Of a DNA stretch of 64,000 nt, positions 1-15,614 are shown in pieces. The notes under the pieces are model-generated. The model searched no databases, was not told the DNA's origin, and saw nothing but the letters and a program-made list of their open reading frames with translations. Position 1 is the stretch's first letter; every line of letters starts with the position of its first letter. The DNA comes from Candidatus Omnitrophota bacterium. GTDB lineage: Bacteria; Omnitrophota; Gorgyraeia; Zapsychrales; Fredricksoniimonadaceae. The stretch spans positions 39,307 to 103,306 of the forward strand of contig JAUSEK010000005.1 of NCBI GenBank assembly GCA_030650275.1. Direction: 5' to 3'. Both the position numbers and the translations under genes were made by a program.

Positions 1-1881
1 TGTCCTAGGCCCAAAGACGAAGAGGCATTTGTCAAACAGGTGTGTTGTTCTGATCTTGCCATAGACGAAAAGAAAGGCGAATACATCCACTTTGGTGGTT
101 TTTATCATAAATACATATCCTTGAAAGTCCTGCCCGAGGCGACCTTCCCGGCCATGTTGGCACGGCTCGATCATCTATCATTCCCGGAATTTGACTTAGT
201 GGTCAATTTTGAGGCCCCGGAAAAAGAATGGGGCAGGACAAGAATTGAAAGTATGCGCAAGCGTGAGTACGGCAATATGCAGGGCATGTTCGGTATTATC
301 AATAAGGACGCGCAGACAAAGGTCAGCCAATACGAATACCTTCTTGAGGAAATTCAACAAAGCAATCAAAAGCTGTTTCGTATGCAGTTGACCGTTCATG
401 TCTATGCCGCGGAGTTTGAAGAAGTCAAAAAGAAAACAGCCGAGGTCATCCGGCTGTTTTCATCTTTGAATGGTACGGAAATGCACGATGAACGCTGGGG
501 TGCGGTCAAGCCGGTCTTTGTCAGCATCCTGCCCGGCTGGACCAAGGAGGCCTCCCGTTGGGTTTTGCTAAAGTCAGCGCACCTGGCCGATTTTATGCCG
601 TTTTTTTCCGAGTTTAAAGGAAGCGGCAAAGCCGAGTGCCTGTTTTACAACACGACTCATGGCCTTGCGGCCTATGATCCTTTTTCCGATGACCTGTCCG
701 CGTTTAATACGGTGGTTGTCGGGGCCTCCGGTTCGGGCAAAAGTTTTACGATAAACCAGATCATCAATCAATACAGCAAAAACGACCCCGTTGAGATCTT
801 CATAGACATTGGCGGCTCCTACAAACGTCAGGTCATTCTAAAAGGCGGTGAATACATTGACCTAGGGTTAAAAGAGAAGTTCACCATCAATCTTTTTGAT
901 CTTTCCGCAGGCAAAAAGTTATGTGACTTTAACGAAGAAGAACAAAACGAAATCCTCATCATCAAGACCAAGACCATTGAACAGATGATGGGTGGCGTGG
1001 CCCGCTTTAACGGCTCTGACCAGATCGTTGAAGATTACATTTTCCGTTCGATCCAACGGCTTTACAGAGCCGTTGAATATCCGGTTTTAAGTGATTTGAA
1101 AGGCGCTCTAAAAGCCACCTGCGAAGCTCATAAAACTCTCCAACAGTTTTATGAGCCGGTTGTCGGGCTTTTAGGCAATTGGTTTGCCGGCGGGCAATAT
1201 GGAAATTATACGGACGGTAAATCCACGATCTCTTTGGATAAAAGCGTCATTTGTTTTGACTTAAAAGGTCTTGAGAAATTCGAACGCCTGCAGGCGGTCA
1301 TGTTGACCATTGTTACCAATTTTGTTTGGGGCAAGATCATGAGTGAGCCGGGACGACGCAAATTTGTCATTTTTGATGAGTGCTGGAAACTTCTCTCCAC
1401 ACCGGAATCCGCCAAATTCATAGCGGAATGTTATCGGACATTCCGTAAATACGGGGCCGCGGCCATATCGGTTACACAGTCCTTGAATGATTTTCTATCC
1501 GGAGGCCTGGAGCATGCCATTTTGGGCAATTCCAACACACGCTTTATCTTAAGGCAAAACTCCATGCCTGCCGTTAAAGGCATTGTTGATTATTTTAATT
1601 TTAACGAGCAGGAACAGCGGCTCATTGAAACCTTGCAGATCAAGAAGGGTGAATATTCCGAGGTGTTCTTTTCCCAGTCAAAGCAGCTGCAGCACATAAG
1701 CGCCAAGATGGTCATATGCCCAACGCCTATTGAGTATTGGGTTGCCACAACGGACGCTATGGATCTCAATTATTACGAGAAGATCAAAATCAAGGGTCCG
1801 GCCTTGAATATGTATGAGGTATTACAGCAATGCGCCAAGGATTTCCCGCGCGGGGTGGGGTATGAGAAGACAAACTATTAA
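1..1881 (+). CDS. virB4: Type IV secretion/conjugation ATPase, VirB4/TraC family (5'-partial, open to window edge)
   Basis: Walker A VVGASGSGKSF and Walker B VIFDECWKLL present. No in-frame stop between nt 1 and the GTG at 40. 613+ aa is the C-terminal part of a ~800-aa VirB4. Confidence 0.75.
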   Translation, partial: CPRPKDEEAFVKQVCCSDLAIDEKKGEYIHFGGFYHKYISLKVLPEATFPAMLARLDHLSFPEFDLVVNFEAPEKEWGRTRIESMRKREYGNMQGMFGIINKDAQTKVSQYEYLLEEIQQSNQKLFRMQLTVHVYAAEFEEVKKKTAEVIRLFSSLNGTEMHDERWGAVKPVFVSILPGWTKEASRWVLLKSAHLADFMPFFSEFKGSGKAECLFYNTTHGLAAYDPFSDDLSAFNTVVVGASGSGKSFTINQIINQYSKNDPVEIFIDIGGSYKRQVILKGGEYIDLGLKEKFTINLFDLSAGKKLCDFNEEEQNEILIIKTKTIEQMMGGVARFNGSDQIVEDYIFRSIQRLYRAVEYPVLSDLKGALKATCEAHKTLQQFYEPVVGLLGNWFAGGQYGNYTDGKSTISLDKSVICFDLKGLEKFERLQAVMLTIVTNFVWGKIMSEPGRRKFVIFDECWKLLSTPESAKFIAECYRTFRKYGAAAISVTQSLNDFLSGGLEHAILGNSNTRFILRQNSMPAVKGIVDYFNFNEQEQRLIETLQIKKGEYSEVFFSQSKQLQHISAKMVICPTPIEYWVATTDAMDLNYYEKIKIKGPALNMYEVLQQCAKDFPRGVGYEKTNY

Positions 1882-1896
1882 CGAAAGGACGTTTTT

Positions 1897-2307
1897 ATGA
1901 TAGACAAATACCTTTATGCGGTTGGGTTAATCTGTTTATTAACCGCCGGTTGTACCATGCGCCAGGCAGGTTATACGGCCCTGGGCGCGGCCGCAGGTGG
2001 TGGTATCGGCTACTCCTTGCATCGTGACGGCAAAGAAGCGGCCATAGGGGGCCTGGCCGGGGCCTTGACCGGCAATCTGGCGGGTCAGTGGCAGGATAAA
2101 GCAGAGAAAACCAAGCATGACAAGGTTTATCAGGAAGGTTACAAGCAGGCCAGGGTGGATGTGGCCGTCAATGATTGGGAAACCAATACAGGAAAGGATT
2201 TATCCAAACGGGAGCCCAAGCGGCTGGTTAGCGTCATGGTCCCCAAGCGGGAGGAAAATAATGTCATTTACGACGCCCAGGAAGTCAAGGTAGAGGATTA
2301 CAGATGA
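1897..2307 (+). CDS. Small lipoprotein with glycine-zipper (possibly a VirB7-like T4SS lipoprotein)
   Basis: Lipobox LLTAGC, Gly-zipper GAAAGGGIGYSL...GGLAGALTGNLAG. Sits 16 nt after virB4, inside the T4SS operon. Confidence 0.45.
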   Translation: MIDKYLYAVGLICLLTAGCTMRQAGYTALGAAAGGGIGYSLHRDGKEAAIGGLAGALTGNLAGQWQDKAEKTKHDKVYQEGYKQARVDVAVNDWETNTGKDLSKREPKRLVSVMVPKREENNVIYDAQEVKVEDYR

Positions 2308-3041
2308 AAAGATTTTTGTCTTTGGCTGTCTTTGTGTTTTTGGTTTATCCCCCGTCATATGCTGTGGCGACCCCTGATTCTACTGCGGCTATTCTGCACC
2401 AGACAGCCGTGCAAACAGCAGAACACCTGCAACGGTTAGCCGAGATAGTAAGAACCATTAAAACATTACAGGAACAAGTAACAAGTACGAGAGGATTACT
2501 GGAATTAGCCAAGCAATCAGCCCGGGGGGTGGATGGCATTGAATTGATCGGGGATTTTCATGATATCACTTTGGGAACGAATAGTGTTATCCGTAATGTT
2601 CAATCATATATGGGTTCGACAGAAAATCTGCCGGATCGTTGGAACAGACTTTTTGGTTCGTTGGATCTATGGGTTCGGGATGCTAATGACGTTTTTAGCA
2701 ATATTGACGTATCCGATAAAACAAATACAGCCGGGTATTTAATTGGGGATAGTTTTCAAGGCCTGTATGAGAAGAATTCCAATATGGTGTCTCAATTTGT
2801 TGAAAATTCCAAACAGGTCAGCGAGAAGGGGGCCTTAAAGCAAATTGCTCAGCAAATGGCCCAATTGATACAGATGGAGAACAATAACATGTACCTTTTA
2901 GCTCAAATACTTAAAAGTCAGAGCATCGAATCCTCTAATGACAATTTGAAACGTAAAGAAGAAGCCATAAAATTTGAGCAGGAGAATCAGGGTATTAAGG
3001 CCTTTAGGGGACTTGTGGACGATAAAACTTTTGGGATTTAA
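2304..3041 (+). CDS. Secreted coiled-coil protein, VirB5/TrbJ-like position in the T4SS operon
   Basis: N-terminal signal peptide and Q/E-rich helical sequence. Overlaps the previous stop by 4 nt. The assignment rests on position only. Confidence 0.35.
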   Translation: MKRFLSLAVFVFLVYPPSYAVATPDSTAAILHQTAVQTAEHLQRLAEIVRTIKTLQEQVTSTRGLLELAKQSARGVDGIELIGDFHDITLGTNSVIRNVQSYMGSTENLPDRWNRLFGSLDLWVRDANDVFSNIDVSDKTNTAGYLIGDSFQGLYEKNSNMVSQFVENSKQVSEKGALKQIAQQMAQLIQMENNNMYLLAQILKSQSIESSNDNLKRKEEAIKFEQENQGIKAFRGLVDDKTFGI

Positions 3042-3045
3042 AGAT

Positions 3046-3957
3046 ATGGACGTAGTGCTTTCAGCGGTCAAGACAGATTTAAACAGAGTTCTCGATGCCG
3101 GGCAGTATATGCTGGTTTCATTTTTCTTGTTGGCGGTATTTGTCAATTACGTTGGGATTTTATCCCGCAGCATTAATTGGGCGGATGTGGTTCTTCGGTT
3201 GGCAATCGGCTTTGTTCTTTTACAGAACTATGTTTGGATCATGGACACCACACGCAATATCGTGGCAAGTGTCGATGAAATGCTTAACCCGAACCAGGAT
3301 TTTATCAGCCAATATGCCGCCATGAGTGACAATATCTGGAAACTTCACGAGGCATCTACTCGGCCGAGCATTGTTTCACAAATCAAATTTATATTTAGCT
3401 CGGCAATTTTTCATAATCTGATCATTAACTTTTCCTTCCTTTTTTATGCGCTCATTGCCAAAGTCATGGAAGCGGTGCGGTATTCCTTGATCGCGATCTT
3501 GTATAAATTGGGGCCGGCGCTTATACCTTTTGTTTTGTTTCGACCAATGACCAATGTGGTCAAGGGTTGGTTTACCAGTTATGTTTCAATTCTTTGTTGG
3601 CCGATCCTTTGGCATATTGCTTTAGGTATAGCCGTTGGTGTAAGCGGCAATACTCATAGCGTAGAGCAATTTGCTTGTACCAATTTTGCCGTGTGTTTTG
3701 TGCTGGTTTTCTCGCCATTGATCATCAATGGTCTTATTGCCGGCATAGGAGCAAGCTCCACATCGGTCTTGGCGGGCTTTATGTCCTCCAAGTCGGCCGC
3801 CAGTTTTATGACCGCGGCTGGGCAAGTTGGAGTTGCAGTTGTGGCATCCAGGGTTGTCGGGCCGCTTATCCAGAAATTGCCCGGTTCCCCTACAACCGCG
3901 ACAGGCAAATTTAAGGATTTGATGCTGGGGCAAAAAGGCAAAGGAGTAAAGCCATGA
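3046..3957 (+). CDS. Polytopic membrane protein, VirB6/TrbL-like
   Basis: Multiple hydrophobic helices, Ser/Ala-rich C-terminal tail. Start chosen at the internal Met (MDVVLSAV) to avoid a 68-nt overlap. Its position follows the VirB5-like gene. Confidence 0.45.
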   Translation: MDVVLSAVKTDLNRVLDAGQYMLVSFFLLAVFVNYVGILSRSINWADVVLRLAIGFVLLQNYVWIMDTTRNIVASVDEMLNPNQDFISQYAAMSDNIWKLHEASTRPSIVSQIKFIFSSAIFHNLIINFSFLFYALIAKVMEAVRYSLIAILYKLGPALIPFVLFRPMTNVVKGWFTSYVSILCWPILWHIALGIAVGVSGNTHSVEQFACTNFAVCFVLVFSPLIINGLIAGIGASSTSVLAGFMSSKSAASFMTAAGQVGVAVVASRVVGPLIQKLPGSPTTATGKFKDLMLGQKGKGVKP

Positions 3958-4535
3958 GTGAACTTGTTTTTAACCGCGTCATCTTGGAAAAACATAACCG
4001 TGTTTTGACTTGGGGCTTGATGATCTTGCTGGGGCTTAATTTGATCTTCGTTTTTTGGTTTATGCGGGCTTCGGGTCAGCCGCCGCTGATTGTTTTTGCG
4101 AAAGACGGCCAGCTGGAAGTCCTCAAATCCAGAGACCTTAAGATGGACGAGGCGTTCTTGAAGGATTTTGTAAAAATGGTCACTGGACAATACTTGTCCT
4201 TTAGCGTTTCGTCCTTGCCTAAACAGATCGAAGGTATCAAGCCATACCTGGCCCCTAAGTCAGCTGAAACCATCCTTGCTTCTTTCAAAAATAATCAGAC
4301 AGTCATCGAAAAAGAAAGCATTTCTCAGCAATTTGTGATCAATGCCATTGCCATCACCAAGAAAACGGATCCTTTCTGGGTAGAGGTCGAGGGTACAAGA
4401 AACATCCGTGCTTCCGGCAATGACAAAAGTGCCGCTGTTACATATATCCTTGAGATCAAGAAAATAAAACCCAGCGAAGAAAACCCTTACGGTTTATTGA
4501 TGACCGATATTATTGAGAAAGGACAAACAAAATGA
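3954..4535 (+). CDS. Bitopic membrane protein, VirB8-like
   Basis: Single N-terminal TM (LMILLGLNLIFVFWFM) then a ~150-aa soluble domain. Gene order is B6-B8-B9-B10. Confidence 0.4.
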   Translation: MSELVFNRVILEKHNRVLTWGLMILLGLNLIFVFWFMRASGQPPLIVFAKDGQLEVLKSRDLKMDEAFLKDFVKMVTGQYLSFSVSSLPKQIEGIKPYLAPKSAETILASFKNNQTVIEKESISQQFVINAIAITKKTDPFWVEVEGTRNIRASGNDKSAAVTYILEIKKIKPSEENPYGLLMTDIIEKGQTK

Positions 4536-5356
4536 AAACCTTAATGCTCATCACGTTCATGCTTTTATCCGGATCGCTTTGGGCCAATCAGGATAACCGT
4601 TACTTGCAGACAGGCAAGGTGCAATACGAGACCCCGCTGGAAGAAGACGTGCTCAAGGTCAACACGGCTTTAGGATATTGCACGGTCTTGGAGTTTGCAG
4701 AAAAGCCCATGCTGGTAACGGTGGGGGACAATTCACTGATCCAGGTGGAAATTCCCCAGAACTCCAAAAGCGTTGTCATTAAACCCATGCAAGAGGCCGG
4801 GGAGACAAACCTGTTCGTTTTTACCCCAAGCCAGCGGTTTAATTATAACGTGGTCATAGGTAGTCCGGCCCAGGTGGACTATGTTCTGGATTCCAGGCAA
4901 GCCCTCAAGGACAAGGGCAAAAGCCATAGCCGATTATCGCTGGGAACTGTTTTGAAGATGGCAAGGTCCTATGCGGGCTTAAAGTCATTGGGCGTTATCA
5001 ATCAGCGTGAATTTATCCAGAAAGACATTTTTAATCAATGCTCCTATCCGTGGGTGAGTATTGATTTTCTTGAGGTCTTTGCCAACAAAGACCCGCATTA
5101 TCTGGTGTTTCATATCGTCGTCCATAACCTGGCAGATGAAACCCTCAATTTGAAGGAAGAAAATGCCAGTATCCTTGTCAATGACCAGAAGTTTATTCCT
5201 CAATATGTCCTGTTTGATAACGATCGGTTAGCTCCATCGAGTAAAACCGACGGCTGGCTGGTTTTGGAGAACAGTTTTGTGTCCATAGACAATAAGTTTT
5301 CTTTAAGCGTTGGGGTGGGGGACGAAGAATATGTCTGCAAACAATCCGTTTCTTAA
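4532..5356 (+). CDS. Secreted beta-rich protein, VirB9/TrbG-like
   Basis: Signal peptide MKTLMLITFMLLSGSLWA. Position is immediately upstream of the VirB10-like gene, with translationally coupled overlaps. Confidence 0.4.
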   Translation: MKTLMLITFMLLSGSLWANQDNRYLQTGKVQYETPLEEDVLKVNTALGYCTVLEFAEKPMLVTVGDNSLIQVEIPQNSKSVVIKPMQEAGETNLFVFTPSQRFNYNVVIGSPAQVDYVLDSRQALKDKGKSHSRLSLGTVLKMARSYAGLKSLGVINQREFIQKDIFNQCSYPWVSIDFLEVFANKDPHYLVFHIVVHNLADETLNLKEENASILVNDQKFIPQYVLFDNDRLAPSSKTDGWLVLENSFVSIDNKFSLSVGVGDEEYVCKQSVS

Positions 5357-6266
5357 AACAGATAACACAGGCAAACGTCAGCCAACGTTTTTTACTTGCG
5401 CTTTGATCGGTCTATTTATTTTTGGTTCCTATTTTATTTCAACAGGCAAAAAGCCCATCAAACATGAAGCCAAACAGACGATCATCAAAGAAAAAGACAT
5501 CATTGAAGCCGCCAACAACACCAAACCCCTTACGGATGAAGGAAAAGCGTTCAAATTCGACTACAGCCAGCTTTTAAAACCACCCGAAGTCAAGCAAACC
5601 GTCCTGGTCCCGATAACCCCGCCGCCGGTGAGCAAACGCATTTCCCCCATAAACACAAAAATCATTGTTTTTGACAATACCAAAGATTATCAGACCAATT
5701 GGGTGGTGCCATTAGGAAGTATGATCAAGTGCCTGTTAATCCACAATATCGTCACCAATAACTTTGAAGCTCCGGTGATCGCCCAGGTATGGGAGGACTT
5801 TTACTTTGATGGCAAATTGCTTTTACCCTTTGGGACACGGATCTACGGGACCGCTTCTGTCGGAAAACAAAGGGACAGGGTGACGGTACGTTTTGACAAT
5901 ATTGTTTTTCAGGATGGCAAGACAGTCAAGATCAATGCCATTGGTTTAAGCAAGGATGGCTCCGGTGGTTTGACCGGTACGGTCATTGATGAGCACAACA
6001 AGCAGACTTTTATTCAAATGGCGCTTAATTTTTTAAGTGGTATGGCATTGGGGTTACAGCAGACGGCCACCAATCAGGTCACAGGCATTAGTGAGATTGA
6101 AGCCAGTTCCCGCAATGCCATACTAAACGGCGCGGCTAATACTTTTCAAAGTGAAGCGGGACGCATTAAAGCCGACGCAGAAAACGCCAAAGGATATGCC
6201 ATTGTCCTGGCCGGCAGTGATCTGATTGTTTATTTCACGAAAGAAGCTGACGTTCAAGGGGGATAG
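5331..6266 (+). CDS. virB10: VirB10/TrbI-like T4SS protein
   Basis: N-terminal TM, a Pro-rich linker (LVPITPPPVSKRISP) and a C-terminal beta-barrel carrying the TrbI-type signature DGSGGLTGTVIDEH. Confidence 0.6.
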   Translation: MSANNPFLKTDNTGKRQPTFFTCALIGLFIFGSYFISTGKKPIKHEAKQTIIKEKDIIEAANNTKPLTDEGKAFKFDYSQLLKPPEVKQTVLVPITPPPVSKRISPINTKIIVFDNTKDYQTNWVVPLGSMIKCLLIHNIVTNNFEAPVIAQVWEDFYFDGKLLLPFGTRIYGTASVGKQRDRVTVRFDNIVFQDGKTVKINAIGLSKDGSGGLTGTVIDEHNKQTFIQMALNFLSGMALGLQQTATNQVTGISEIEASSRNAILNGAANTFQSEAGRIKADAENAKGYAIVLAGSDLIVYFTKEADVQGG

Positions 6267-6268
6267 AC

Positions 6269-6535
6269 ATGTCTTTGAAATTCGTGTCCTTATTATTTGT
6301 GATTGTCTTAAGCGGATGCGCTACCTGGGATGATCCTGACTTTAGTAAAACTTTGATTCCGTTCCCCGAACGACAGGCAGAAAAACACAAAGAGGAAAAG
6401 GCCTGGGTTGAGGCCAAGACCAGCCGGGCGTGGGTCAATGCTCATGTGGATGAGAACAGTGATCTTGTGGAAGGTCATTATAAACACATTGTGATAGAGG
6501 CCGGACATTGGGCGGTTAAGCCAGATGGAAAATAA
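6269..6535 (+). CDS. Small lipoprotein (T4SS-associated)
   Basis: Lipobox VLSGCATW, 88 aa, lies between the VirB10-like and VirD4 genes. Confidence 0.4.
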   Translation: MSLKFVSLLFVIVLSGCATWDDPDFSKTLIPFPERQAEKHKEEKAWVEAKTSRAWVNAHVDENSDLVEGHYKHIVIEAGHWAVKPDGK

Positions 6536-8279
6536 TAAAGAAAATAACACAGAGAATACCCGTGACTTTGGCCTTCTTGCCCTGATTTTCTTAGTAATTC
6601 TCTACCGTAAATACGGTGAGTGGGTCCAGGCAAAACTACAAGAGCCGTATTCTTTAGTATTGCTTGGATTGGCGGTGGCCTTGGCATTAGGACTGCTTTG
6701 GTGTACAGGGCACTACATCGAGAAATTAAGGAATCGTTTCAATATGTGGCGACTGGGCATTAAGCCCGCAAAAGATATAGCGTTTCCTTTTTATATTTTT
6801 GATCTACCAAAGCAATTGAAAGCCCTTTACCAGAAGGGGAATAATCTCGACATGACTCTTTTAGGAATGAATGCCGAAAAACGGAATAAAGAAATGGTCA
6901 CCGTTTCCGATATTCAGCGAAGCCAGCATTTACAAATTCTAGGAATGACCGGCACAGGCAAGACCTCAGGGGTTTTCTTGCCTTTGATCTATCAGGACGC
7001 CTTGAAAAATCGTCCTGTTATCATCCTTGATGCCAAAGGAGAGTTATCATCCATTTACCAGCTTCATGCCATGCTGGCTTCTATTGGCAGGGCTGATGAT
7101 TTTTTGCTGTTCTCGTTGGCGTACAAAGATATTTCCTGTACGTATAATCCGCTATTCGTGGGGGAGTGTGATCCCCAGATCGTCATAGATGCTTTTTTAA
7201 GTAATTTTCAAGATGACAATTCGTTTTATAGGGAAATGTCTAAAACGATATTCACAAATGCTTTTTACATTTTGCATTCGCTGGGCAAGCCTTTTACGGT
7301 CTTAGATATTTATGCTTATTTGACCAAACCATCCTGCTATAGCTTTATTAATAAACAGATCACAGACAAACACGGAAAAGGGATGACGCATTTAAAGTTA
7401 CTGGAAGGATTGATCGAGCGTTTGAAGAACCAGCAAAATGGATTGGAAAATGTGATCGCGGGTTTTACCAACTATCTTTTTGCCCACCAGGACAGCACCC
7501 TCAATGACCCTGACAGCGATATTGTTTTAACTGATGCGATAAGACAACGGAAAATTGTGTATTTTCAGCTTCCGACGAATTCTTATCCCATCCAGGCTAT
7601 AAGTATCGCCCGCATGGTACAGGCGAATTTGCGCTATATTTCTTCACTTATTCAAACAGGACAAATACCAAAAAATACATTGGTTAGTATTGTCATTGAT
7701 GAATACGCTTCATTCGCCGAAGAGTCTTTTGTTGAGGTATTAAACAAGGCCCGCAGCAGCGGGATGATGGTGACCATAGCGCATCAAAGTTTAAGCGATT
7801 TAAAAGCCATATCCGTAACGTTCATGAAACGTATTGACGAAAATACTCTCAATAAAATTTATCTTAGGCAAACCGACCCGGAACTTTGCGAATTGATAGC
7901 CAAAAGCATGGGTACATACCTTAAAGAAGAAAAAACATACCGGATGACTGCGGGTAAGTTTGGTAATCAAATTTACAGCGGAGAATCGTCCAACCGTGTG
8001 GTCAATGAGTTTCACTTTCCGCCGGATAAAATCAAGAATTTGCATAAATTTGGCCAAGGATATTTTATTTATAGGGGAGACAACAGCCAGAAGTGCGTTA
8101 ACTTGGGACATTTTGTTGATATGCCGGAATTGCAGTATAAGAGAAAAGAAAAAAAGAATAAAAGAGGTGGATTGCGGTTATTTGAGAAATACTATCTTAA
8201 TTCGGCAAAGCCAAAATTGGAAAAACCTGAGAAAGATAATAAAGAAGATGGCGGAGCAAGGCCGCACATCGGAGATTGA
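6525..8279 (+). CDS. virD4: Type IV coupling protein, VirD4/TraG/TraD family
   Basis: N-terminal TM helices, Walker A LQILGMTGTGKTSG, Walker B VSIVIDEYASF, and a Lys-rich C-terminal tail. Confidence 0.75.
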   Translation: MENNKENNTENTRDFGLLALIFLVILYRKYGEWVQAKLQEPYSLVLLGLAVALALGLLWCTGHYIEKLRNRFNMWRLGIKPAKDIAFPFYIFDLPKQLKALYQKGNNLDMTLLGMNAEKRNKEMVTVSDIQRSQHLQILGMTGTGKTSGVFLPLIYQDALKNRPVIILDAKGELSSIYQLHAMLASIGRADDFLLFSLAYKDISCTYNPLFVGECDPQIVIDAFLSNFQDDNSFYREMSKTIFTNAFYILHSLGKPFTVLDIYAYLTKPSCYSFINKQITDKHGKGMTHLKLLEGLIERLKNQQNGLENVIAGFTNYLFAHQDSTLNDPDSDIVLTDAIRQRKIVYFQLPTNSYPIQAISIARMVQANLRYISSLIQTGQIPKNTLVSIVIDEYASFAEESFVEVLNKARSSGMMVTIAHQSLSDLKAISVTFMKRIDENTLNKIYLRQTDPELCELIAKSMGTYLKEEKTYRMTAGKFGNQIYSGESSNRVVNEFHFPPDKIKNLHKFGQGYFIYRGDNSQKCVNLGHFVDMPELQYKRKEKKNKRGGLRLFEKYYLNSAKPKLEKPEKDNKEDGGARPHIGD

Positions 8280-8300
8280 TTTCTACAAAGGACTGGTCAT

Positions 8301-8498
8301 ATGGGTTTTGCAATACTTGAAAAGCGTTATTTAGGAATGGTAGAATGTTCTGAATATATAGGTATTAGCAAGGGGACCCTTTATGTATGGGTGTGTCATA
8401 AAAGAATTCCTTACATAAAAGTTGGAAGACTGGTAAAATTTGATCTGAAAGTTATAGAAGCATGGCTCAAAGAAAATTCTGTAGCAAAATTGAATTGA
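8301..8498 (+). CDS. xis: AlpA/Xis-type excisionase (MerR-like HTH)
   Basis: 65 aa with HTH ISKGTLYVWVCHKRIPYIKVGRLVKFDLKVIEAWL. The likely start is the internal Met at 8337. It lies just upstream of the integrase module. Confidence 0.6.
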   Translation: MGFAILEKRYLGMVECSEYIGISKGTLYVWVCHKRIPYIKVGRLVKFDLKVIEAWLKENSVAKLN

Positions 8499-8538
8499 TT
8501 TTACCACTTACTGACTTCCTCTTTAGCATAGAAGCCGA

Positions 8539-8567
8539 TTGACAAGTTTATTTTTGTCAGATATACT
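8539..8567 (+). promoter_or_regulatory. Consensus sigma70 promoter (TTGACA-17-TATACT) overlapping the inverted repeat TGACAA-n8-TTGTCA
   Basis: -35 TTGACA at 8539-8544, a 17-nt spacer, and -10 TATACT at 8562-8567. It lies 45 nt upstream of the MNT gene, and further palindromes (tccag...ctgga) follow it. Confidence 0.6.
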
Positions 8568-8611
8568 ATGTCCAGATATATGGACGTATATCCATTTAAC
8601 TGGACAACAAA

Positions 8612-9232
8612 ATGAGATTTAATAAGCCCCTCAACCATATTTTAGACAGCCAGACAAAAACTATTTGTTTGCGACTGCTTTGTAACCATCCTACTGAAAT
8701 AAACGGCAGGCAATTATCAAAGATTGTTAAGCTGTCGCCCACAACTGTTCATAAGGCCATGAAGGAATTAGCTAATGAACAGATCATTATTCTAAAGAAT
8801 TATGGAAATTCTCATGTATATGAGTTAAATAAAGACAATAGGATTGTAGCGGAGATATTAAAACCCATGTTTAATAAAGAAAAAATACTGTTAGACAGCT
8901 TTATAAAAAACATTGTTCGGGGTATTAAAAGATCTGGATTTATAAATTCAATCTTTTCAATAGTGCTTTTTGGCAGCGTACAAAAAGGGACCGAAAAGCC
9001 CGGCAGCGATATAGATTTATGTGTTGTGGTCAAAGAACAAAAGGATAAAAAAAGGGTAGAAAATCTAATATTTAATATGAATTCCGGTTTAATGATCCCC
9101 CTAGGCATGGGTATTGAGCCTTACGTTAAGACTATCAGTGAATTTAAAAAAGATAAGGGATTGGGCGTTATTAAATCAATATTAAAATCTCATCGAATTG
9201 TGTGGGGTGAACGATTGGAGGGGGTAGTATGA
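8612..9232 (+). CDS. wHTH-fused minimal nucleotidyltransferase (MNT), antitoxin-like partner of HEPN
   Basis: N-terminal winged-helix and the MNT motif LFGSVQKGTEKPGSDIDLCVV (GS-x9-DxD). There is a 4-nt overlap with the downstream HEPN gene. Confidence 0.7.
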   Translation: MRFNKPLNHILDSQTKTICLRLLCNHPTEINGRQLSKIVKLSPTTVHKAMKELANEQIIILKNYGNSHVYELNKDNRIVAEILKPMFNKEKILLDSFIKNIVRGIKRSGFINSIFSIVLFGSVQKGTEKPGSDIDLCVVVKEQKDKKRVENLIFNMNSGLMIPLGMGIEPYVKTISEFKKDKGLGVIKSILKSHRIVWGERLEGVV

Positions 9233-9636
9233 GCGCGAAATCTTTAAAAAGTATCTATGTTTCTCAAAATGGGTATAAAGGTTTCCAAAATAAAGCCAAT
9301 GATTTCTATCAAGTAATGCGATTATCGCTAGACGCTGGATTATGGAACGGAGTAGGTTTAAATGCGGCGCATTGTGTTATCTCCTTAAATGATGCTTTAA
9401 CAGTCTACTTTTTGAGGAAAAGATTTAGTGGAGATGATCATCGGCATGCATCCCAGTTGCTCTCGCAAATACCCATTGATGGAGTTAAGCAATACGTTAA
9501 TGCGTATGATAAAATAATTTCTAAGAAACATATGGTTGCTTATGAAGAACGTGAATTCAGACAATCCGAAGCATTGGAGATTGTTAAACAAACAGAAAGA
9601 TTTTATCAGTGGGGCGTAGGTCAATTGCCACATTGA
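9229..9636 (+). CDS. HEPN-domain protein (toxin component of a HEPN/MNT pair)
   Basis: R-x5-H motif RFSGDDH(RH). 135 aa, translationally coupled to the MNT gene. Confidence 0.6.
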   Translation: MSAKSLKSIYVSQNGYKGFQNKANDFYQVMRLSLDAGLWNGVGLNAAHCVISLNDALTVYFLRKRFSGDDHRHASQLLSQIPIDGVKQYVNAYDKIISKKHMVAYEEREFRQSEALEIVKQTERFYQWGVGQLPH

Positions 9637-9701
9637 GAGATGTTGTATGCAAAACGATGTCCATAGCTTCAATAGTATATGCAAAATGAAGTTATAAAAG
9701 G

Positions 9702-10901
9702 TTGAATAATATGGCTGTCTTTAATCGTGTTTGTTGTCCAGGGTGCGGTCAAAATCATAATGTCTATAAAAGAGACGTTAAGGAAATCATTTGTACGCAT
9801 TGCAAAGCAGAGATCAAAATCAGTTCCCGGGAGGGTAATTATTTTATCGAGCATTACTTCAACGGCAGGAGAAAAAGAGAGAAAGTAGGTTCCAGCCGAA
9901 AATTAGCTGAAACGGTTTTAGCCAAGCGTAAGGTCGAAATTGCTGAAGGCAAGTTTCTCGATGTTAACAAAAGTGAAAAGATCAAGTTTGAAATTTTTGG
10001 CAACGAGTTTATTAATGTCCATTCCAAGGTTAATAAAAAGAGTTGGCAGTCAGATCGCTACAATCTTAATAGCTTGGGTAAGTTTTTTGGAGGCAAATAC
10101 CTTTACGAAATCAAAGTCAAAGATATCGAAGATTTCAAGTTGGAACGTTCTAAAACCGCTTCACCGGCTACAGTTAATCGGGAGCTGGCTACTTTAAAGA
10201 CGTTATTTAATAAAGCGGTGCTTTGGGACAAGCTTAAAGAGACTCCTGCAAAAGCTGTTACTTTCTTGAGAGAGCCAAAAGGCCGGGTCCGGTTCCTGGA
10301 ACGTGAGGAGATCGTTAAATTGCTTTCCAATTGCAATAAAAAGCTGCGACCCATTGTGGTTGTTGCCTTAAATACCGGGATGCGCAGAGGAGAGATTTTA
10401 GGCTTAAAATGGTCAGATGTTGATCTCAAAAGGGCTATTTTAACCCTCCATGACACCAAGAATGGTGAAAAGCGGGAAGTATACATAAATGAGCAGGTCA
10501 AGACGGCTTTGATTAGGATACCCAGGAATGCCCAAAGTCCTTATGTTTTCTGCGGTTCCAACGGAAAACCATACCAGGATGTTCGCAAATCATTCTGGAC
10601 AGCCCTGCGTAAATCTGATATAAAAGAGTTTCATTTTCATGACCTGCGGCATACTTTCGCAAGCCAGTTGGTCATGGCCGGTATAGATCTAAATACAGTG
10701 CGAGAATTATTAGGCCATAAGGATATAAGAATGACATTGCGTTATAGCCATTTATCGGCAAGCCATAAAAAACATGCGGTGGACGTTTTAGGTAAAAAGA
10801 TAGACACTTTTTGGACACTAGACGGTGATTCTAAAAGTAAGCAAAATTATGATTTATCGCAAGTTATTGGAAATAAACAACTAATGAGGTCCGGGACGTA
10901 G
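9702..10901 (+). CDS. int: Tyrosine recombinase/integrase with N-terminal Zn-ribbon
   Basis: Catalytic region ...R...HDLRHTFAS...LGH...RY. Four Cys at the N-terminus (CPGCG...CTHC). The stop codon TAG at 10899-10901 lies inside the tRNA gene. Confidence 0.85.
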   Translation: MNNMAVFNRVCCPGCGQNHNVYKRDVKEIICTHCKAEIKISSREGNYFIEHYFNGRRKREKVGSSRKLAETVLAKRKVEIAEGKFLDVNKSEKIKFEIFGNEFINVHSKVNKKSWQSDRYNLNSLGKFFGGKYLYEIKVKDIEDFKLERSKTASPATVNRELATLKTLFNKAVLWDKLKETPAKAVTFLREPKGRVRFLEREEIVKLLSNCNKKLRPIVVVALNTGMRRGEILGLKWSDVDLKRAILTLHDTKNGEKREVYINEQVKTALIRIPRNAQSPYVFCGSNGKPYQDVRKSFWTALRKSDIKEFHFHDLRHTFASQLVMAGIDLNTVRELLGHKDIRMTLRYSHLSASHKKHAVDVLGKKIDTFWTLDGDSKSKQNYDLSQVIGNKQLMRSGT

Positions 10902-10968
10902 CGCAGTTGGCTAGCGCACTTGAATGGGGTTCAAGAGGCCGTGAGTTCAAATCTCACCGTCCCGACCA
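10892..10968 (+). tRNA. tRNA-Pro (anticodon GGG)
   Basis: 77-nt cloverleaf: acceptor CGGGACG/CGTCCCG, D-arm GCGC-AGTTGGCTA-GCGC, anticodon stem CTTGA/TCAAG with loop ATGGGGT, T-arm GTGAG-TTCAAAT-CTCAC, discriminator A, encoded CCA. Confidence 0.85.
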
Positions 10969-11050
10969 TTTTAATTTAGGGAAGTGAGATTTGAAGCCGA
11001 CCCGAGCGCCATTGGTCCAAGCGAGGGCGGCCGACTGCGGGGGAATACCA

Positions 11051-11407
11051 ATGACAGACTCTTTCAAAGACCGCCGGCAGCATGTCCGTATTTACCGTAA
11101 CTATATCCTTTCCTATCATTTAAAGGGGAAAGGCAACATCAAATACGAAATGTCGCAGGTCAATAATATCAGCAAAGGCGGGATCAATTTCATTGTCAAC
11201 GCGCCCTTTGAGCCCGGCAGTGAACTGGTCATTGAGCTCAAGACGCCGTTTTTAGGCGACAACGTCACCCTGGAGGGGGTGGTCCTGGACTCAAAGGAAA
11301 AGATCCCGGGGCTCCTGTATGAGGCCAGGGTCCAATTCCATGAACTTTCGGCACAAGCCCAGGATGTTCTGGACAAGATCGAGCGTTATTCTTCCGAAAA
11401 TAAATAA
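11051..11407 (+). CDS. PilZ-domain c-di-GMP-binding protein
   Basis: RRQHVR (RxxxR) and NNISKGG (D/NxSxGG) motifs. The ORF could start at 10991, but the start was chosen at the Met preceding the PilZ motif. Confidence 0.65.
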   Translation: MTDSFKDRRQHVRIYRNYILSYHLKGKGNIKYEMSQVNNISKGGINFIVNAPFEPGSELVIELKTPFLGDNVTLEGVVLDSKEKIPGLLYEARVQFHELSAQAQDVLDKIERYSSENK

Positions 11408-11428
11408 GGATAATCGTGTGAGGTTCGT

Positions 11429-12724
11429 ATGGAACGCATCAATATCGGTTTGATCGGCTATGGCGTCATCGGACAAGGGGTCGTCAAGATCCTGAAAAGC
11501 CGCCGTAAATTCTATAAAGACAAATATCAAAAAGATTTCTTTATCAAGACCATCGCGGACCGCAGCATTGCCAAAAAACCCTCACCCGGTCTGGACAATA
11601 CTTTTTTGACCCCGGACTATCATGCCGTGCTCAATGACAAGGATATTTCCATCGTCATTGAACTCATCGGCGGCATGAATCCGGCCAAGGACATCGCTTT
11701 GTCCGTTTTGCGTTCCGGGAAGCATTTGATCACCGCCAACAAGGAACTGATCGCCAATTGCGGCCAGGAACTTTTCAAAGAGGCCAATGCCGCCGGTAAA
11801 AGCGTTTATTTTGAATCCGCGGTCGGGGCCGGCATTCCCATCATCCGCACCATCACCGAGGGTCTGGCCGGCAATAAATTCAACGGCGTCTACGGGATCA
11901 TCAACGGCACCTGCAATTATATTTTGACCGAAATGTCCCGGAGACAATTGACGTTCCAGCAGGCCCTGAAAGAAGCGCAGGAAAAAGGATATGCCGAAAG
12001 CAATCCGACTTTGGACATCAACGGCATGGACGCGGCGCACAAACTGGCTATTCTGGTTTTCTTGACCCAGGGGAAGTTCGTCGGGGTCAAGGATTTTTAT
12101 ACCGAGGGGATCAATCATATTTCCCACGAGGACATTGAATTCGCCGGTAACCTGAATCTGACCATACGGCTTTTGGCCATTGCCAAGAGGGTCGGCAATG
12201 AACTTGACGTGCGTGTGCATCCGACGCTGATCCCCAAAGAGCACGCGTTGGCCACGGTCAACGGTGTGGACAATGCCATCTTTTTGGATACCGACCCGCT
12301 GGGTGATATTTTCATTGAAGGTCAGGGCGCGGGGCAGATGACCGCGGCCTCCGGGGTCGTCAGCGATCTGGTCAATGTGGCCATGCGCAAAGACATGGCC
12401 ATGCCGGTGTGGGCGGGCAACCCCATTGAAGAGGGGGAGGGCCTCACCATCCGCAAGATCGATGAAGTGGAGACCCGTTTTTACATCCGTTTCATGGTCA
12501 TTGACAAACCCGGTGTTCTGGCGATCATCACCGGTGTTTTGGGCCAGCACAATATCAGCATCGCGTCCGTCACCCAGAAACAGGAAAATAAGGGCCTGAC
12601 CGTTCCCGTGGTCATGTTGACCCATGGCGCCAAGGAACATCTGGTGCGCGAGGCACTGGAACAGATCAATCATCTGGCGGTGGTGCGCAGCAAACCCGTG
12701 GCCATCCGCATGGAGAAGTTATGA
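11429..12724 (+). CDS. hom: Homoserine dehydrogenase
   Basis: NAD-binding [12 protein letters not shown], a central catalytic domain and a C-terminal ACT domain. Confidence 0.9.
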
Positions 12725-13779
12725 TGGTCCGTTGGACAGGCGTCATTGAGCGTTACCGTGAATATCTGCCGGTTTCCCAAAAGACCCCGGTCGTCACCCT
12801 GCATGAAGGCAATACGCCTTTGATCCCGTCGGAAGAATTGTCCAAACGCACCGGCCTGCAGGTTTTCTTGAAATATGAGGGTTTAAACCCGACGGGGTCT
12901 TTCAAAGACCGCGGCATGACCATGGCCATTTCCAAGGCCGCTGAAAAAAAGGCCAGGGTGGTCATCTGCGCGTCCACCGGCAACACCTCGGCTTCGGCCG
13001 CGGCGTATGCCGCCCGTGCCGGGATGAAATGCGTTGTCCTGATCCCCAACGGCAACATTGCTCTGGGCAAATTGGCCCAGGCCATGGTGCATCAAGCACA
13101 GGTCATTGCCATTGACGGTAATTTTGACGATGCTTTAAACCTGGTCAAGGACATCGCGGCCCATTATCCGGTGGAACTGGTCAATTCCATCAATCCTTTC
13201 CGTATTGAAGGGCAAAAGACAGCCGCTTTTGAGATCTGTGATTTCTTAGGGGACGCCCCGGATTTTCATGCCATACCCGTTGGCAATGCCGGTAATATCA
13301 CGGCGTATTGGAAAGGGTATCAAGAATACAAGTCCGCGGGCAAAAGCAAAATTTTGCCGAAAATGCTTGGATTCCAGGCCGCGGGCGCCGCGCCCATTGT
13401 TGAAAACCGTGTCATTAAAGATCCAGACACCATCGCGACTGCCATCCGCATCGGCAATCCGGCCAGTTGGAAGGCGGCGGTCGCGGCCCGCGACGAGTCC
13501 AAAGGAACGATCGACAAGGTGACGGACGCCCAGATCCTGGAGGCCTATCGTTTGATCGCCGGCGCCGGTATTTTCGCGGAACCGGCCAGCGCCGCATCCA
13601 TTGCCGGCATTTTGAAGTTGACCCAAAGCGGGTATTTTGCTCAACACAAGGGCGGGCGCATTGTCTGCACCCTGACCGGGCATGGACTTAAAGATCCCGG
13701 CACAGCCATGAAGGACCTGCCCCAGCCGCCGGTTGTTGCCGCGGACCGCAAAGCCATTTTATCGCTCATAGGATTGTGA
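12721..13779 (+). CDS. thrC: Threonine synthase
   Basis: PLP-fold motifs HEGNTPLIP and GSFKDRGM, typical of ThrC. Overlaps hom by 4 nt. Confidence 0.9.
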
Positions 13780-13780
13780 C

Positions 13781-14344: not shown

Positions 14345-14410
14345 TGTAGGGGCGATGCTTGTCATCGCCCGCGATGAGGGCGAACACAAGGTTCGCCCCT
14401 ACGGTCAATC

Positions 14411-15613: not shown

Positions 15614-15614
15614 T

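What the first reader, a model, noticed from the sequence alone, without database searches (positions are those of the whole stretch)
1..10968. Right-hand portion of an integrative-conjugative element: T4SS module, excisionase, HEPN/MNT pair and integrase ending at tRNA-Pro
The region shows a contiguous, translationally coupled plus-strand array: VirB4 (partial), lipoprotein, VirB5-like, VirB6-like, VirB8-like, VirB9-like, VirB10 (TrbI signature), lipoprotein, VirD4 coupling protein. It is followed by an AlpA-type Xis, a wHTH-MNT/HEPN pair and a tyrosine integrase abutting a tRNA. No VirB11-type ATPase lies between VirB10 and VirD4. The relaxase and the other element end must be upstream of the window. 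Everything downstream of the tRNA is core metabolism, so the tRNA marks the chromosomal junction.
Basis: partly seen in the sequence, partly recalled or inferred. Interest (0 to 1): 0.6.

Follow-up and report, generated by a model that had tools for sequence, protein, structure and literature searches.

The report
Conjugative element end at tRNA-Pro
This is the integrase-proximal half of a mobile conjugative element in an uncultured Omnitrophota bacterium, ordinary in kind but unusual because it sits on the 5' side of a tRNA gene, the reverse of the common arrangement.

Summary

**What is there.** Window 1-10968 holds a tight plus-strand operon:
- VirB4/TraC (C-terminal 626 aa only) and a lipoprotein
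- two conserved proteins with no family match
- TraE/VirB8-like, VirB9-like, VirB10/TrbI and a TraV-like lipoprotein
- a coupling protein (T4CP), then Xis, a wHTH-MNT/HEPN pair and a tyrosine integrase

The integrase stop codon lies inside tRNA-Pro(GGG).

**Evidence of mobility.**
- A genome 92% identical downstream has an empty site (gpsA-tRNA-Pro-PilZ-hom). Identity starts exactly at tRNA base 1.
- A related metagenome contig carries the predicted left junction: gpsA, the native promoter, tRNA-Pro bases 1-40, then foreign DNA.
- That contig shares a 16-nt GACAC-N6-GACAC motif with the window's right arm.

The attachment identity block is therefore the 5' 40 nt of the tRNA, which is the rarer orientation (159 of 3919 Islander islands).

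**Family context.** The same transfer module occurs in many Omnitrophota genomes, next to different tRNAs. There it is always preceded by a VirB2-type pilin and a small wHTH plus PD-(D/E)XK-like "replication-relaxation" protein, a candidate MOB_C relaxase.

**Not shown.**
- The labels "VirB5-like" and "VirB6-like" rest on gene position only.
- The left part of this copy of the element was not retrievable.

This is a new member of a known kind, of moderate interest.

The parts
1..1881 (+). VirB4/TraC-type T4SS ATPase, C-terminal 626 aa. About 296 N-terminal residues are missing at the window edge.
   Evidence: P-loop_TraG 9.5e-34, TraC_F_IV, CagE_TrbE_VirB. TIGR02746 TraC-F-type 238 bits against a cutoff of 567. 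Full-length homologue of 922 aa in L012. 85-94% aa identity to Omnitrophota relatives.
1897..2307 (+). Lipoprotein with a glycine-zipper domain
   Evidence: Gly-zipper_Omp 1.8e-6. Lipobox LLTAGC. Conserved in position in all relatives.
2304..3041 (+). Secreted, predicted all-helical protein in the VirB5 position. Family unknown.
   Evidence: No hit in Pfam, NCBIfam, PADLOC or a PDB profile search. Signal peptide. Single-sequence AF2 model is all helix but pLDDT is 44. 40-63% identical in 10 relatives.
3046..3957 (+). Polytopic inner-membrane protein in the VirB6 position. Family unknown. The longest ORF starts at 2974; the likely start is the ATG at 3046.
   Evidence: About 6 hydrophobic segments. 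No family or PDB hit. Relatives align from residue 24-25.
3954..4535 (+). TraE/VirB8-like bitopic protein
   Evidence: Pfam TraE 1.2e-5, just above cutoff. TIGR02761 2.4e-5. One N-terminal TM segment.
4532..5356 (+). VirB9/TraK-like secreted protein
   Evidence: CagX 5.7e-7, 30 bits against a cutoff of 34. TIGR02781 VirB9 1.2e-9, below cutoff.
5310..6266 (+). VirB10/TraB (TrbI domain)
   Evidence: TrbI 3.1e-22, above cutoff. NF038091 VirB10 4.5e-11.
6269..6535 (+). Small lipoprotein, TraV/VirB7-like
   Evidence: Lipobox VLSGC. TraV 5.4e-4, 21.4 bits against a cutoff of 21.
6525..8279 (+). Type IV coupling protein (VirD4/TraD)
   Evidence: TraG-D_C 1.4e-11, TrwB_AAD_bind, T4SS-DNA_transf. SXT_TraD 1.3e-28, below cutoff.
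8301..8498 (+). Excisionase / AlpA-type HTH (recombination directionality factor candidate)
   Evidence: HTH_17 1.8e-9. Present between T4CP and Int in relatives.
8539..8567 (+). Promoter-like site in front of the MNT/HEPN pair
   Evidence: TTGACA-17-TATACT, 11 of 12 matches.
8612..9232 (+). wHTH fused to a minimal nucleotidyltransferase (MntA-like antitoxin). Cargo.
   Evidence: NTP_transf_2 1.2e-10, HTH_24 1.1e-5. MntA_antitoxin 1.9e-7, below cutoff. PADLOC PDC-M05A 7.7e-17. Absent from relatives' elements.
9229..9636 (+). HEPN-domain protein (HepT-like toxin candidate), overlapping the MNT gene by 4 nt
   Evidence: HEPN 2.1e-3, below cutoff. The R-x5-H motif (RFSGDDH) is readable in the translation.
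9702..10901 (+). Tyrosine integrase. The likely start is the ATG at 9711. It has an N-terminal CxxC...CxxC segment. The stop codon TAG is tRNA nt 8-10.
   Evidence: Phage_integrase 3.3e-36. Best NCBIfam hits are XerA_Arch and XerC, below cutoff. Sequence.
10803..10818 (+). GACAC-N6-GACAC direct repeat, a candidate arm-type integrase binding site
   Evidence: Unique in the 64-kb window, with 0.05 expected by chance. The identical 16-mer lies in the left arm of L027. Analogous AGCAC-N6-AGCAC repeats occur at the same place in L002, L011 and L028.
10892..10931 (+). att identity block: tRNA-Pro nucleotides 1-40, from the 5' end through the anticodon loop
   Evidence: 100% identical to L027 1609-1648, after which L027 diverges into element DNA. 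Identity with the empty site L025 starts at 10892.
10892..10968 (+). Intact tRNA-Pro(GGG). This is attR, the chromosomal junction.
   Evidence: ARAGORN. Rfam RF00005, 66 bits. Identical to the tRNA in empty site L025.

Best explanation

**Shown**
- The region encodes one operon of mating-pair-formation genes plus a coupling protein. These are followed by an excisionase, a toxin-antitoxin-like cargo pair with its own promoter-like site, and a tyrosine integrase.
- The element is inserted between gpsA and tRNA-Pro(GGG).
- The block shared by the two junctions is tRNA nucleotides 1-40.

**Inferred**
- The circular form carries a copy of the tRNA 5' half just after int.
- Int, probably helped by GACAC arm sites on both arms, recombines it with the chromosomal tRNA, most likely in the anticodon loop.
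- This leaves a 40-nt tRNA stub behind the native promoter at the left junction, and a complete tRNA behind int at the right junction.
- The tRNA must then be transcribed from the element, as described for archaeal pTN3-type integrases.
- Xis reverses the reaction.
- A small wHTH plus PD-(D/E)XK 'replication-relaxation' (MOB_C-like) protein processes an oriT in the conserved ~280-nt region upstream of its own gene. This protein lies just upstream of the window in all relatives.
- The T4CP and the VirB11-less T4SS, with a VirB2-type pilin, then transfer the DNA.
- The MNT/HEPN pair is exchangeable cargo that probably stabilises or defends the element.
For: - Gene content. Operon structure. GC break at the tRNA.
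- Empty sites: L022-L026, L029 and L030 have gpsA next to tRNA-Pro; L028's tRNA-Pro is also unoccupied. L025 is 92% identical over window 11042-18396, with identity beginning exactly at 10892.
- Left junction in L027: gpsA, a TATAAT promoter, tRNA-Pro 1-40, then unrelated DNA.
- The 16-nt GACACTTTTTGGACAC motif is shared by the window's right arm and L027's left arm. Comparable repeats occur in relatives.
- A second occupied/empty pair at tRNA-Thr (L024 versus L023) also breaks at tRNA +1.
- The same c1-pilin-VirB4...T4CP-Xis-Int module sits next to + strand tRNA-Ala, -Thr, -Ser and -Ser in other Omnitrophota MAGs.
- Relaxase candidate: invariant H, D, E, K and Y residues. PF13814 hits in 4 of 10 close members and in 26 of the 47 remote profile hits scanned. 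NCBI names some members 'replication-relaxation family protein'.
- PF13814 corresponds to CONJscan MobC (PMC5357655). MOB_C relaxases are PD-(D/E)XK proteins with an N-terminal wHTH and occur in ICEs (PMC12857230).
- The AF2 model (pLDDT 90.6) has an N-terminal wHTH.
- Literature precedent for 5' integration: 159 of 3919 Islander islands (PMC4383910), and pTN3-like integrases with the tRNA expressed from the int promoter (PMC8371274).
Against: - The left two-thirds of this copy is not in the window, and its contig could not be fetched.
- The attL comes from another sample. It is tied to this element only by the shared core and the 16-mer.
- No relaxase is in the window, and the MOB_C assignment of c1 is remote. 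Most close members miss the Pfam threshold. Foldseek gives only weak nuclease matches (probability <0.35). tblastn found no plasmid homologue.
- Most T4SS hits are below curated cutoffs.
- Two conserved genes have no assignable family.
- No consensus promoter was found between int and the tRNA, so how the tRNA is expressed is inferred.
- Transfer and excision are untested.
Confidence: 0.85

Rival explanations
1. It is a decayed or domesticated remnant of an ICE, fixed in the chromosome and no longer able to excise or transfer.
For: Only the right part is visible. The relaxase and left end of this copy are unseen. No consensus promoter for the tRNA.
Against: - Every gene aligns at full length with its homologues in relatives, with no frameshifts.
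- The integrase catalytic-domain hit is full length.
- The site is empty in a genome 92% identical, which implies recent gain or loss.
- The att core is 100% identical between attR and an attL from a relative.
Confidence: 0.08
2. The T4SS is not a conjugation machine. It is a contact-dependent effector or DNA-release/uptake system carried on a genomic island, used by these small, possibly host-dependent bacteria to interact with other cells.
For: - T4SS components are very divergent and below family cutoffs.
- Two conserved components have no known family.
- No classical HUH relaxase lies within 8-10 kb upstream in any relative.
Against: - A VirD4-type coupling protein is always present.
- A Replic_Relax/MOB_C-like protein with a conserved upstream region bearing inverted repeats always heads the module.
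- The module travels with Xis and Int to many different tRNA sites and carries typical ICE cargo: metal resistance, R-M, UmuDC, TA pairs.
Confidence: 0.05
3. The element is compact (about 13 kb, from c1 to int), and the variable DNA upstream of c1 in relatives is host chromosome rather than cargo.
For: - Sequence conservation among relatives stops about 280 nt upstream of c1.
- Several contigs break there.
Against: - No fragment of the target tRNA (>=11 nt exact, or longer with mismatches) occurs anywhere in the ~20 kb upstream of the tRNA in L002, L008, L011 or L012.
- Two different elements of one MAG (L001, L008) share homologous giant ORFs upstream of c1.
- L027's left-end sequence and its 136-aa ORF are not found upstream of c1 in any locus.
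- The one candidate repeat in L011 lies inside a DUF3326 gene.
Confidence: 0.05

Closest known systems
Integrative and conjugative elements with a tyrosine integrase at a tRNA gene (for example ICEclc, ICEHin1056 and PAPI-1 types; named from general knowledge)
   Same: - MPF genes plus T4CP plus Xis plus a tyrosine integrase at one end.
- Insertion in a tRNA gene with regeneration of the tRNA.
- Variable cargo.
- Lower GC than the host.
- Presence/absence polymorphism.
   Different: - Those elements lie 3' of the tRNA and duplicate its 3' part. This one lies 5' and duplicates nt 1-40.
- Their relaxases are large MOB_H/MOB_P/MOB_F proteins. Here the only candidate is a ~250-aa MOB_C-like protein.
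- The T4SS proteins are too divergent to reach any curated family cutoff.
pTN3-like integrases of Thermococcales, and the bacterial element of Zhao & Williams 2002 (5'-half tRNA integration)
   Same: - attB is the 5' half of a tRNA gene.
- int lies immediately upstream of, and co-oriented with, the regenerated tRNA, which must then be expressed from the element (PMC8371274; PMC6563490).
   Different: - Those are archaeal plasmids/viruses or a non-conjugative island. Here the module belongs to a bacterial ICE.
- Sequence relatedness of the integrases was not tested.
- The best NCBIfam hit to archaeal XerA (120 bits against a cutoff of 220) is not a membership call.
F-type (MPF_F) T4SS: TraC, TraE, TraK, TraB, TraV, TraD
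   Same: - Best-scoring names for VirB4, VirB8-, VirB7-like and T4CP components are TraC-F-type, TraE, TraV and TraD.
- No VirB11.
- The gene order TraE-TraK-TraB-TraV is as in F.
   Different: - About 23% identity to plasmid TraC.
- Scores are far below cutoffs.
- None of TraF/H/N/U/W or TrbC was seen.
- The pilin in relatives is TrbC/VirB2 type, not TraA.
MOB_C relaxases (TraX of pAD1, MobC of CloDF13) / Pfam Replic_Relax PF13814
   Same: The protein that heads the module in all relatives has an N-terminal wHTH and a C-terminal domain with invariant D...E...K residues. Its remote homologues are PF13814 members (PMC12857230).
   Different: - It is not in the window.
- Most close members fall below the Pfam threshold.
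- No detectable similarity to any PLSDB plasmid.
- No biochemical evidence.
HepT/MntA type VII toxin-antitoxin (HEPN/MNT) pairs
   Same: - The MNT gene comes first and overlaps the HEPN gene by 4 nt.
- GS...DxD and R-x5-H motifs are present.
- Own promoter-like site.
   Different: - The MNT protein carries an extra N-terminal wHTH and best matches the candidate defence family PDC-M05A.
- Both HMM hits are below curated cutoffs.

Membership tests
Integrative and conjugative element (ICE) | VirB4-family ATPase plus other mating-pair-formation proteins | tested here: met
   VirB4/TraC, TraE, VirB9-like, TrbI/VirB10, TraV-like.
Integrative and conjugative element (ICE) | Type IV coupling protein | tested here: met
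   TraG-D_C, TrwB_AAD_bind, T4SS-DNA_transf at 6525-8279.
Integrative and conjugative element (ICE) | Relaxase and oriT | tested here: inconclusive
   None in the window. All relatives have a Replic_Relax/MOB_C-like gene two genes upstream of VirB4, with a conserved ~280-nt leader bearing inverted repeats. This copy's upstream DNA could not be fetched.
Integrative and conjugative element (ICE) | Integrase at an end, flanked by direct att repeats | tested here: met
   Int at 9702-10901. attR core at 10892-10931. The matching attL with the same 40 nt was seen in relative L027 rather than in this genome.
Integrative and conjugative element (ICE) | Absent from the same site in close relatives | tested here: met
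   Empty sites in L022-L026, L029 and L030; L028's tRNA-Pro is also unoccupied.
Integrative and conjugative element (ICE) | Excision and conjugative transfer observed | not testable with these tools
   Needs junction reads from the source metagenome, or experiments.
F-type T4SS (MPF_F) | TraC-type VirB4 reaching the family threshold | tested here: not met
   TIGR02746 scores 238 bits against a cutoff of 567. About 23% identity to plasmid TraC.
F-type T4SS (MPF_F) | F-specific components (TraF, TraH, TraN, TraU, TraW, TrbC) and TraA pilin | tested here: not met
   No such Pfam or NCBIfam hit in the window. The pilin in relatives is TrbC/VirB2 type.
VirB/D4-type T4SS (MPF_T) | VirB11 ATPase and VirB1-VirB11 gene set | tested here: not met
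   No VirB11, VirB1, VirB3 or VirB5 hits. The VirB8 position is TraE-like.
MOB_C relaxase / Replic_Relax (protein c1 of relatives, outside the window) | Match to PF13814 / the CONJscan MobC profile | tested here: inconclusive
   PF13814 matched in 4 of 10 close members (best E 6.7e-6), and in 26 of the 47 remote profile hits scanned (best 7.2e-12). CONJscan itself is not available.
MOB_C relaxase / Replic_Relax (protein c1 of relatives, outside the window) | N-terminal wHTH plus PD-(D/E)XK catalytic core | tested here: inconclusive
   The wHTH is clear (Foldseek probability ~1). Invariant H93, D139, E157, K163 and Y188. The nuclease fold is matched only weakly (EcoO109I, AvaII, NucS; probability <0.35).
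5'-half tRNA-targeting tyrosine integrases (pTN3-like / Zhao-Williams type) | Identity block covers the 5' part of the tRNA, and int lies upstream of and co-oriented with the regenerated tRNA | tested here: met
   The same layout appears at tRNA-Thr in L011, L024 and L028, and at tRNA-Ala in L002.
5'-half tRNA-targeting tyrosine integrases (pTN3-like / Zhao-Williams type) | Sequence homology to the pTN3 integrase clade | not tested
HepT/MntA type VII toxin-antitoxin | MNT with GS..DxD and HEPN with Rx4-6H, adjacent genes, HMM above threshold | tested here: inconclusive
   Motifs and the 4-nt overlap are present. MntA scores 30.9 bits against a cutoff of 60, and HEPN 18.6 against 22.

The most novel reading that the evidence does not exclude
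This may be one copy of a phylum-wide Omnitrophota ICE family with a conserved MOB_C-like/F-like transfer core and interchangeable integrases, all of which capture the 5' half of a tRNA gene. Integration would then rewire transcription in both directions. The host tRNA becomes dependent on read-through from int, whose stop codon here lies inside the tRNA and would be removed by RNase P processing. The strong native tRNA promoter is redirected into the element's left end. Together these would give the element a built-in sensor of its integrated state, or a hold on the host.
Probability: 0.25. Interest if true: 0.55.

Novelty: new member of a known kind. Interest (0 to 1): 0.4.

Why it matters
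- Omnitrophota are uncultured, often very small-celled bacteria, and their means of gene exchange are poorly described. This locus, with its roughly 100 relatives, documents a self-contained conjugative element family in the phylum.
- Cargo seen in relatives includes metal resistance, restriction-modification, translesion polymerases and toxin-antitoxin pairs.
- It adds a clear bacterial example of integration into the 5' half of tRNA genes. That class is about 4% of mapped islands and forces the tRNA to be transcribed from the element.
- It links a minimal VirB11-less T4SS to a very small MOB_C-like relaxase candidate.
- None of these features is new in principle, so the value is mainly for cataloguing and for annotation. 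Standard T4SS and relaxase profiles miss most of these genes at curated thresholds.

Tried and rejected
1. **Fetching this genome's own upstream DNA.** Exact-protein look-ups of the lipoprotein, the integrase and the 100%-identical hom protein P0110 (contig 115,879 bp) found nothing on record.
3. **IMG/VR scan with the T4CP.** No relatives found.
4. **Compact-ICE idea** (left end just upstream of c1). Rejected: no tRNA fragments within ~20 kb, and L001 and L008 share upstream ORFs.
5. **Gapped match in L011** between the c1-upstream region and the tRNA-Thr leader (z about 5). Rejected because it lies inside a full-length DUF3326 gene.
6. **Weak AT-rich match at the L012 boundary.** Not significant.
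7. **VirB5/VirB6 identity.** Profile searches against PDB sequences found nothing. The single-sequence AF2 model of 2304-3041 was unusable (pLDDT 44).
9. **c1 against PLSDB plasmids.** No match.
10. **Promoter for the tRNA.** No consensus sigma-70 promoter between int and the tRNA.
11. **Further copies of tRNA-Pro fragments in the window.** Only a 12-nt inverted T-arm copy and a chance-level 11-mer.

Full report
**1. The observation**

Window 1-10968 carries an uninterrupted plus-strand gene array. HMM searches assign most of it.

| Coordinates | Assignment | Support |
|---|---|---|
| 1-1881 | C-terminal 626 aa of a VirB4/TraC ATPase | P-loop_TraG 9.5e-34; best NCBIfam TraC-F-type, 238 bits vs cutoff 567 |
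| 1897-2307 | Glycine-zipper lipoprotein | Gly-zipper_Omp 1.8e-6 |
| 3954-4535 | TraE/VirB8-like | Pfam TraE 1.2e-5 |
| 4532-5356 | VirB9/CagX-like | below cutoff |
| 5310-6266 | TrbI/VirB10 | 3.1e-22 |
| 6269-6535 | TraV-like lipoprotein | weak |
| 6525-8279 | VirD4/TraD coupling protein | TraG-D_C 1.4e-11 |
| 8301-8498 | HTH_17 excisionase | 1.8e-9 |
| 8612-9232 | wHTH plus nucleotidyltransferase | NTP_transf_2 1.2e-10 |
| 9229-9636 | HEPN protein | weak (2e-3), with an R-x5-H motif |
| 9702-10901 | Tyrosine integrase | Phage_integrase 3.3e-36 |

- tRNA-Pro(GGG) lies at 10892-10968 on the + strand.
- Junctions from VirB4 to Xis are -26 to +21 nt, with several 4-nt overlaps.
- There is no VirB11.
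- GC content is 35-47% in the array and 52-58% downstream.
- Two genes, 2304-3041 and 3046-3957, are conserved in all relatives but match no family, no defence model and no PDB sequence.
- 2304-3041 has a signal peptide and an all-helical but low-confidence model (pLDDT 44). 3046-3957 has about six hydrophobic segments. 'VirB5-like' and 'VirB6-like' therefore remain positional guesses.

**2. The host and the family**

- The hom gene downstream is 100% identical to a protein from a Candidatus Omnitrophota MAG.
- VirB4 finds 15 loci, all in Omnitrophota MAGs; some are mislabelled Planctomycetales.
- In these loci the module order is constant:
  - a 250-aa protein here called c1
  - a TrbC/VirB2 pilin
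  - VirB4 (922 aa)
  - the lipoprotein and the two unknown proteins
  - TraE, VirB9, VirB10, TraV-like and T4CP
  - Xis, then Int
- VirB4 is 85-94% identical across elements, while the other proteins are 40-80% identical. Contigs often break inside VirB4 (L007, L010, L014, L015). This probably explains why the window starts there.
- DNA upstream of c1 is unrelated from locus to locus and looks like cargo:
  - copper resistance
  - an RND pump
  - type I and type III restriction-modification
  - UmuDC
  - HerA
  - metabolic genes
  - giant ORFs
- The slot between T4CP/Xis and Int also varies:
  - MNT/HEPN only in the window
  - AbiEi/AbiEii in L013
  - ORF6N in L011 and L019
  - In L012 a Gp49-like gene, and in L008 a Schlafen/AlbA_2 gene, lie instead between Int and the tRNA

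**3. The junction**

*Orientation.* The tRNA is on the same strand as int and downstream of it, so the element abuts the tRNA 5' end. The int stop codon TAG is tRNA nucleotides 8-10. The same orientation recurs in relatives:

| Locus | tRNA | Distance from int stop |
|---|---|---|
| L002 | tRNA-Ala | 30 nt |
| L011 | tRNA-Thr | 77 nt |
| L024 | tRNA-Thr | 17 nt |
| L028 | tRNA-Thr | 30 nt |
| L012, L008 | tRNA-Ser | further away |

*Empty sites.* Seven related loci have gpsA, about 70 nt with a TATAAT box, then tRNA-Pro, with no element; where the contig continues, PilZ and hom follow (L022-L026, L029, L030). L028, whose hom is 92% identical at the protein level, has a PAS kinase and response regulator, not an element, ahead of tRNA-Pro.
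- L025 is 92% identical to window 11042-18396.
- Its match to the window begins exactly at 10892, the first tRNA base.
- An independent occupied/empty pair at tRNA-Thr (L024 versus L023, same hom protein) also diverges within 0-2 nt of tRNA +1.

*Left junction.* L027, a 2.4-kb groundwater contig found through gpsA, shows the predicted attL.
- It reads gpsA, the same promoter region, tRNA-Pro nucleotides 1-40, then unrelated AT-rich DNA encoding a 136-aa membrane protein.
- The 40 nt are identical to window 10892-10931.
- The identity block runs from tRNA +1 to the 3' edge of the anticodon loop. This mirrors the common anticodon-loop class of 3' integrations.

*Arm sites.*
- A 16-nt GACACTTTTTGGACAC motif occurs once in the 64-kb window, 73 nt before the tRNA, with 0.05 expected by chance.
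- It occurs identically 120 nt inside L027's left arm.
- L002, L011 and L028 have analogous AGCAC-N6-AGCAC repeats at the same position in their int 3' ends.
- I read these as arm-type integrase sites. They are what ties the L027 left end to the window's integration module.

**4. Relaxase**

No classical relaxase lies within 8-10 kb upstream of VirB4 in any relative. The conserved module is always headed by c1.
- c1 has a conserved PDAIFW...FLEYERT.K signature.
- Pfam Replic_Relax (PF13814) is hit in 4 of 10 close members.
- NCBI annotates some homologues as 'replication-relaxation family protein'.
- A profile search of 1.84 billion representatives gives 1719 hits. Of 47 remote hits scanned, 26 are PF13814 members, and no other family competes.
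- H93, D139, E157, K163 and Y188 are invariant across that set.
- The AF2 model (pLDDT 90.6) has a clear N-terminal winged helix. Its alpha/beta C-domain has only weak matches to PD-(D/E)XK nucleases.
- PF13814 is the Pfam counterpart of CONJscan MobC (PMC5357655).
- MOB_C relaxases are PD-(D/E)XK proteins with an N-terminal wHTH and are found in plasmids and ICEs (PMC12857230).
- The ~280 nt upstream of c1 is conserved. It has tandem TTGACA boxes and two inverted repeats, so it is a plausible promoter plus oriT.

It remains an inference for this copy, and a remote assignment in general.

**5. Size and left end**

- No fragment of the target tRNA occurs in the ~20 kb upstream of the tRNA in four relatives.
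- L001 and L008, two different elements in one MAG, share homologous giant ORFs upstream of c1.
- The elements therefore exceed 20 kb, and the variable region is cargo rather than host flank.
- The left part of the window's own element could not be retrieved.

**6. Mechanism**

*Shown:*
- gene content
- insertion between gpsA and tRNA-Pro
- the 40-nt 5' identity block
- presence/absence polymorphism
- spread of the module to other tRNAs

*Inferred:*
- attP carries tRNA nt 1-40 directly after int.
- Int, together with the arm sites, recombines most likely in the anticodon loop.
- After integration the native TATAAT promoter drives only a 40-nt stub and reads into the element's left end.
- The intact tRNA sits behind int and must be transcribed from the element. 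This has been reported for pTN3-like integrases and seldom in bacteria (PMC8371274). No consensus promoter was found in the int 3' end.
- Xis directs excision.
- c1, the T4CP and the VirB11-less T4SS carry out transfer.
- MNT/HEPN, with its own TTGACA-17-TATACT site, acts as a stabilising or defence cargo.

**7. Comparison and novelty**

- This is an ICE by gene content, ends and polymorphism.
- It should not be filed under MPF_F or MPF_T, because defining components are missing or below threshold.
- Integration into the tRNA 5' part is known but a minority: 159 islands with 5' fragments against 3760 with 3' fragments in Islander (PMC4383910).
- The held papers mentioning conjugative elements in Omnitrophota were listed. 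The one opened does not describe this family.

My verdict is a new member of a known kind, well supported, and of moderate interest.

Noticed in passing
window 10973-11041 (inverted repeat arms 10946-10957 and 10984-10995): The spacer between tRNA-Pro and PilZ is 69 nt longer than in the 92%-identical empty-site genome L025. The extra DNA contains a perfect 12-nt inverted copy of the tRNA T-arm (TTCAAATCTCAC / GTGAGATTTGAA). It may be a scar of another integration event at the 3' side, or a hairpin. It is unexplained.
   Followed up: partly
window 1-1881 and loci L001-L015: VirB4 is 85-94% identical in protein across elements whose other T4SS proteins are only 40-80% identical. Several contigs (L007, L010, L014, L015) break inside it, so the window probably starts at such an assembly break.
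   Followed up: partly
L023 7300-7700 versus L024 1-480; L028 3550-5111; L011 19371-20690: tRNA-Thr(TGT), first gene of a Thr-Tyr-Gly tRNA cluster, is a second 5'-side integration site. It is occupied in L024, L028 and L011 and empty in L022 and L023. In L028 the Xis-Int pair follows genes that do not resemble the T4CP, so the integration module may also serve non-conjugative elements.
   Followed up: partly
L027 1536-2431: At the left junction the native tRNA promoter (TATAAT 22 nt before tRNA +1) now points through the 40-nt tRNA stub into the element. The first gene there encodes a 136-aa membrane protein with no family, followed by a hairpin.
   Followed up: no
L001 1820-6277; L008 15-2258 and 2412-7796: Giant ORFs of 1485 and 1794 aa lie just upstream of the transfer module in two different elements of one MAG. 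They have almost no Pfam signal; there is only a Metallophos hit in one.
   Followed up: no
L016 13833-14249 (the same ~430-490-nt gap after VirB4 in L002, L003, L010, L013): Some relatives carry an SSB gene inserted between VirB4 and the lipoprotein gene. The window has only a 15-nt gap there.
   Followed up: no
L012 7800-8072 and aligned regions of 9 other loci (alignment A2): A conserved ~280-nt leader lies upstream of the c1 gene. It has tandem TTGACA boxes and inverted repeats (ACCGAT..ATCGGT; CAATTTCTTT..AAAGAAGTTG), so it is a candidate promoter/oriT. Conservation ends abruptly at its left edge, where the cargo differs in every element.
   Followed up: partly
window 9702-9800: The integrase has an N-terminal CPGC...CTHC segment (a zinc-ribbon-like motif) ahead of the SAM-like domain. 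It is shared with the L008, L012 and L013 integrases, whose alignments begin at residue 4 of the window integrase, but not with the L001, L002 and L011 integrases, whose alignments begin at residue 54.
   Followed up: no
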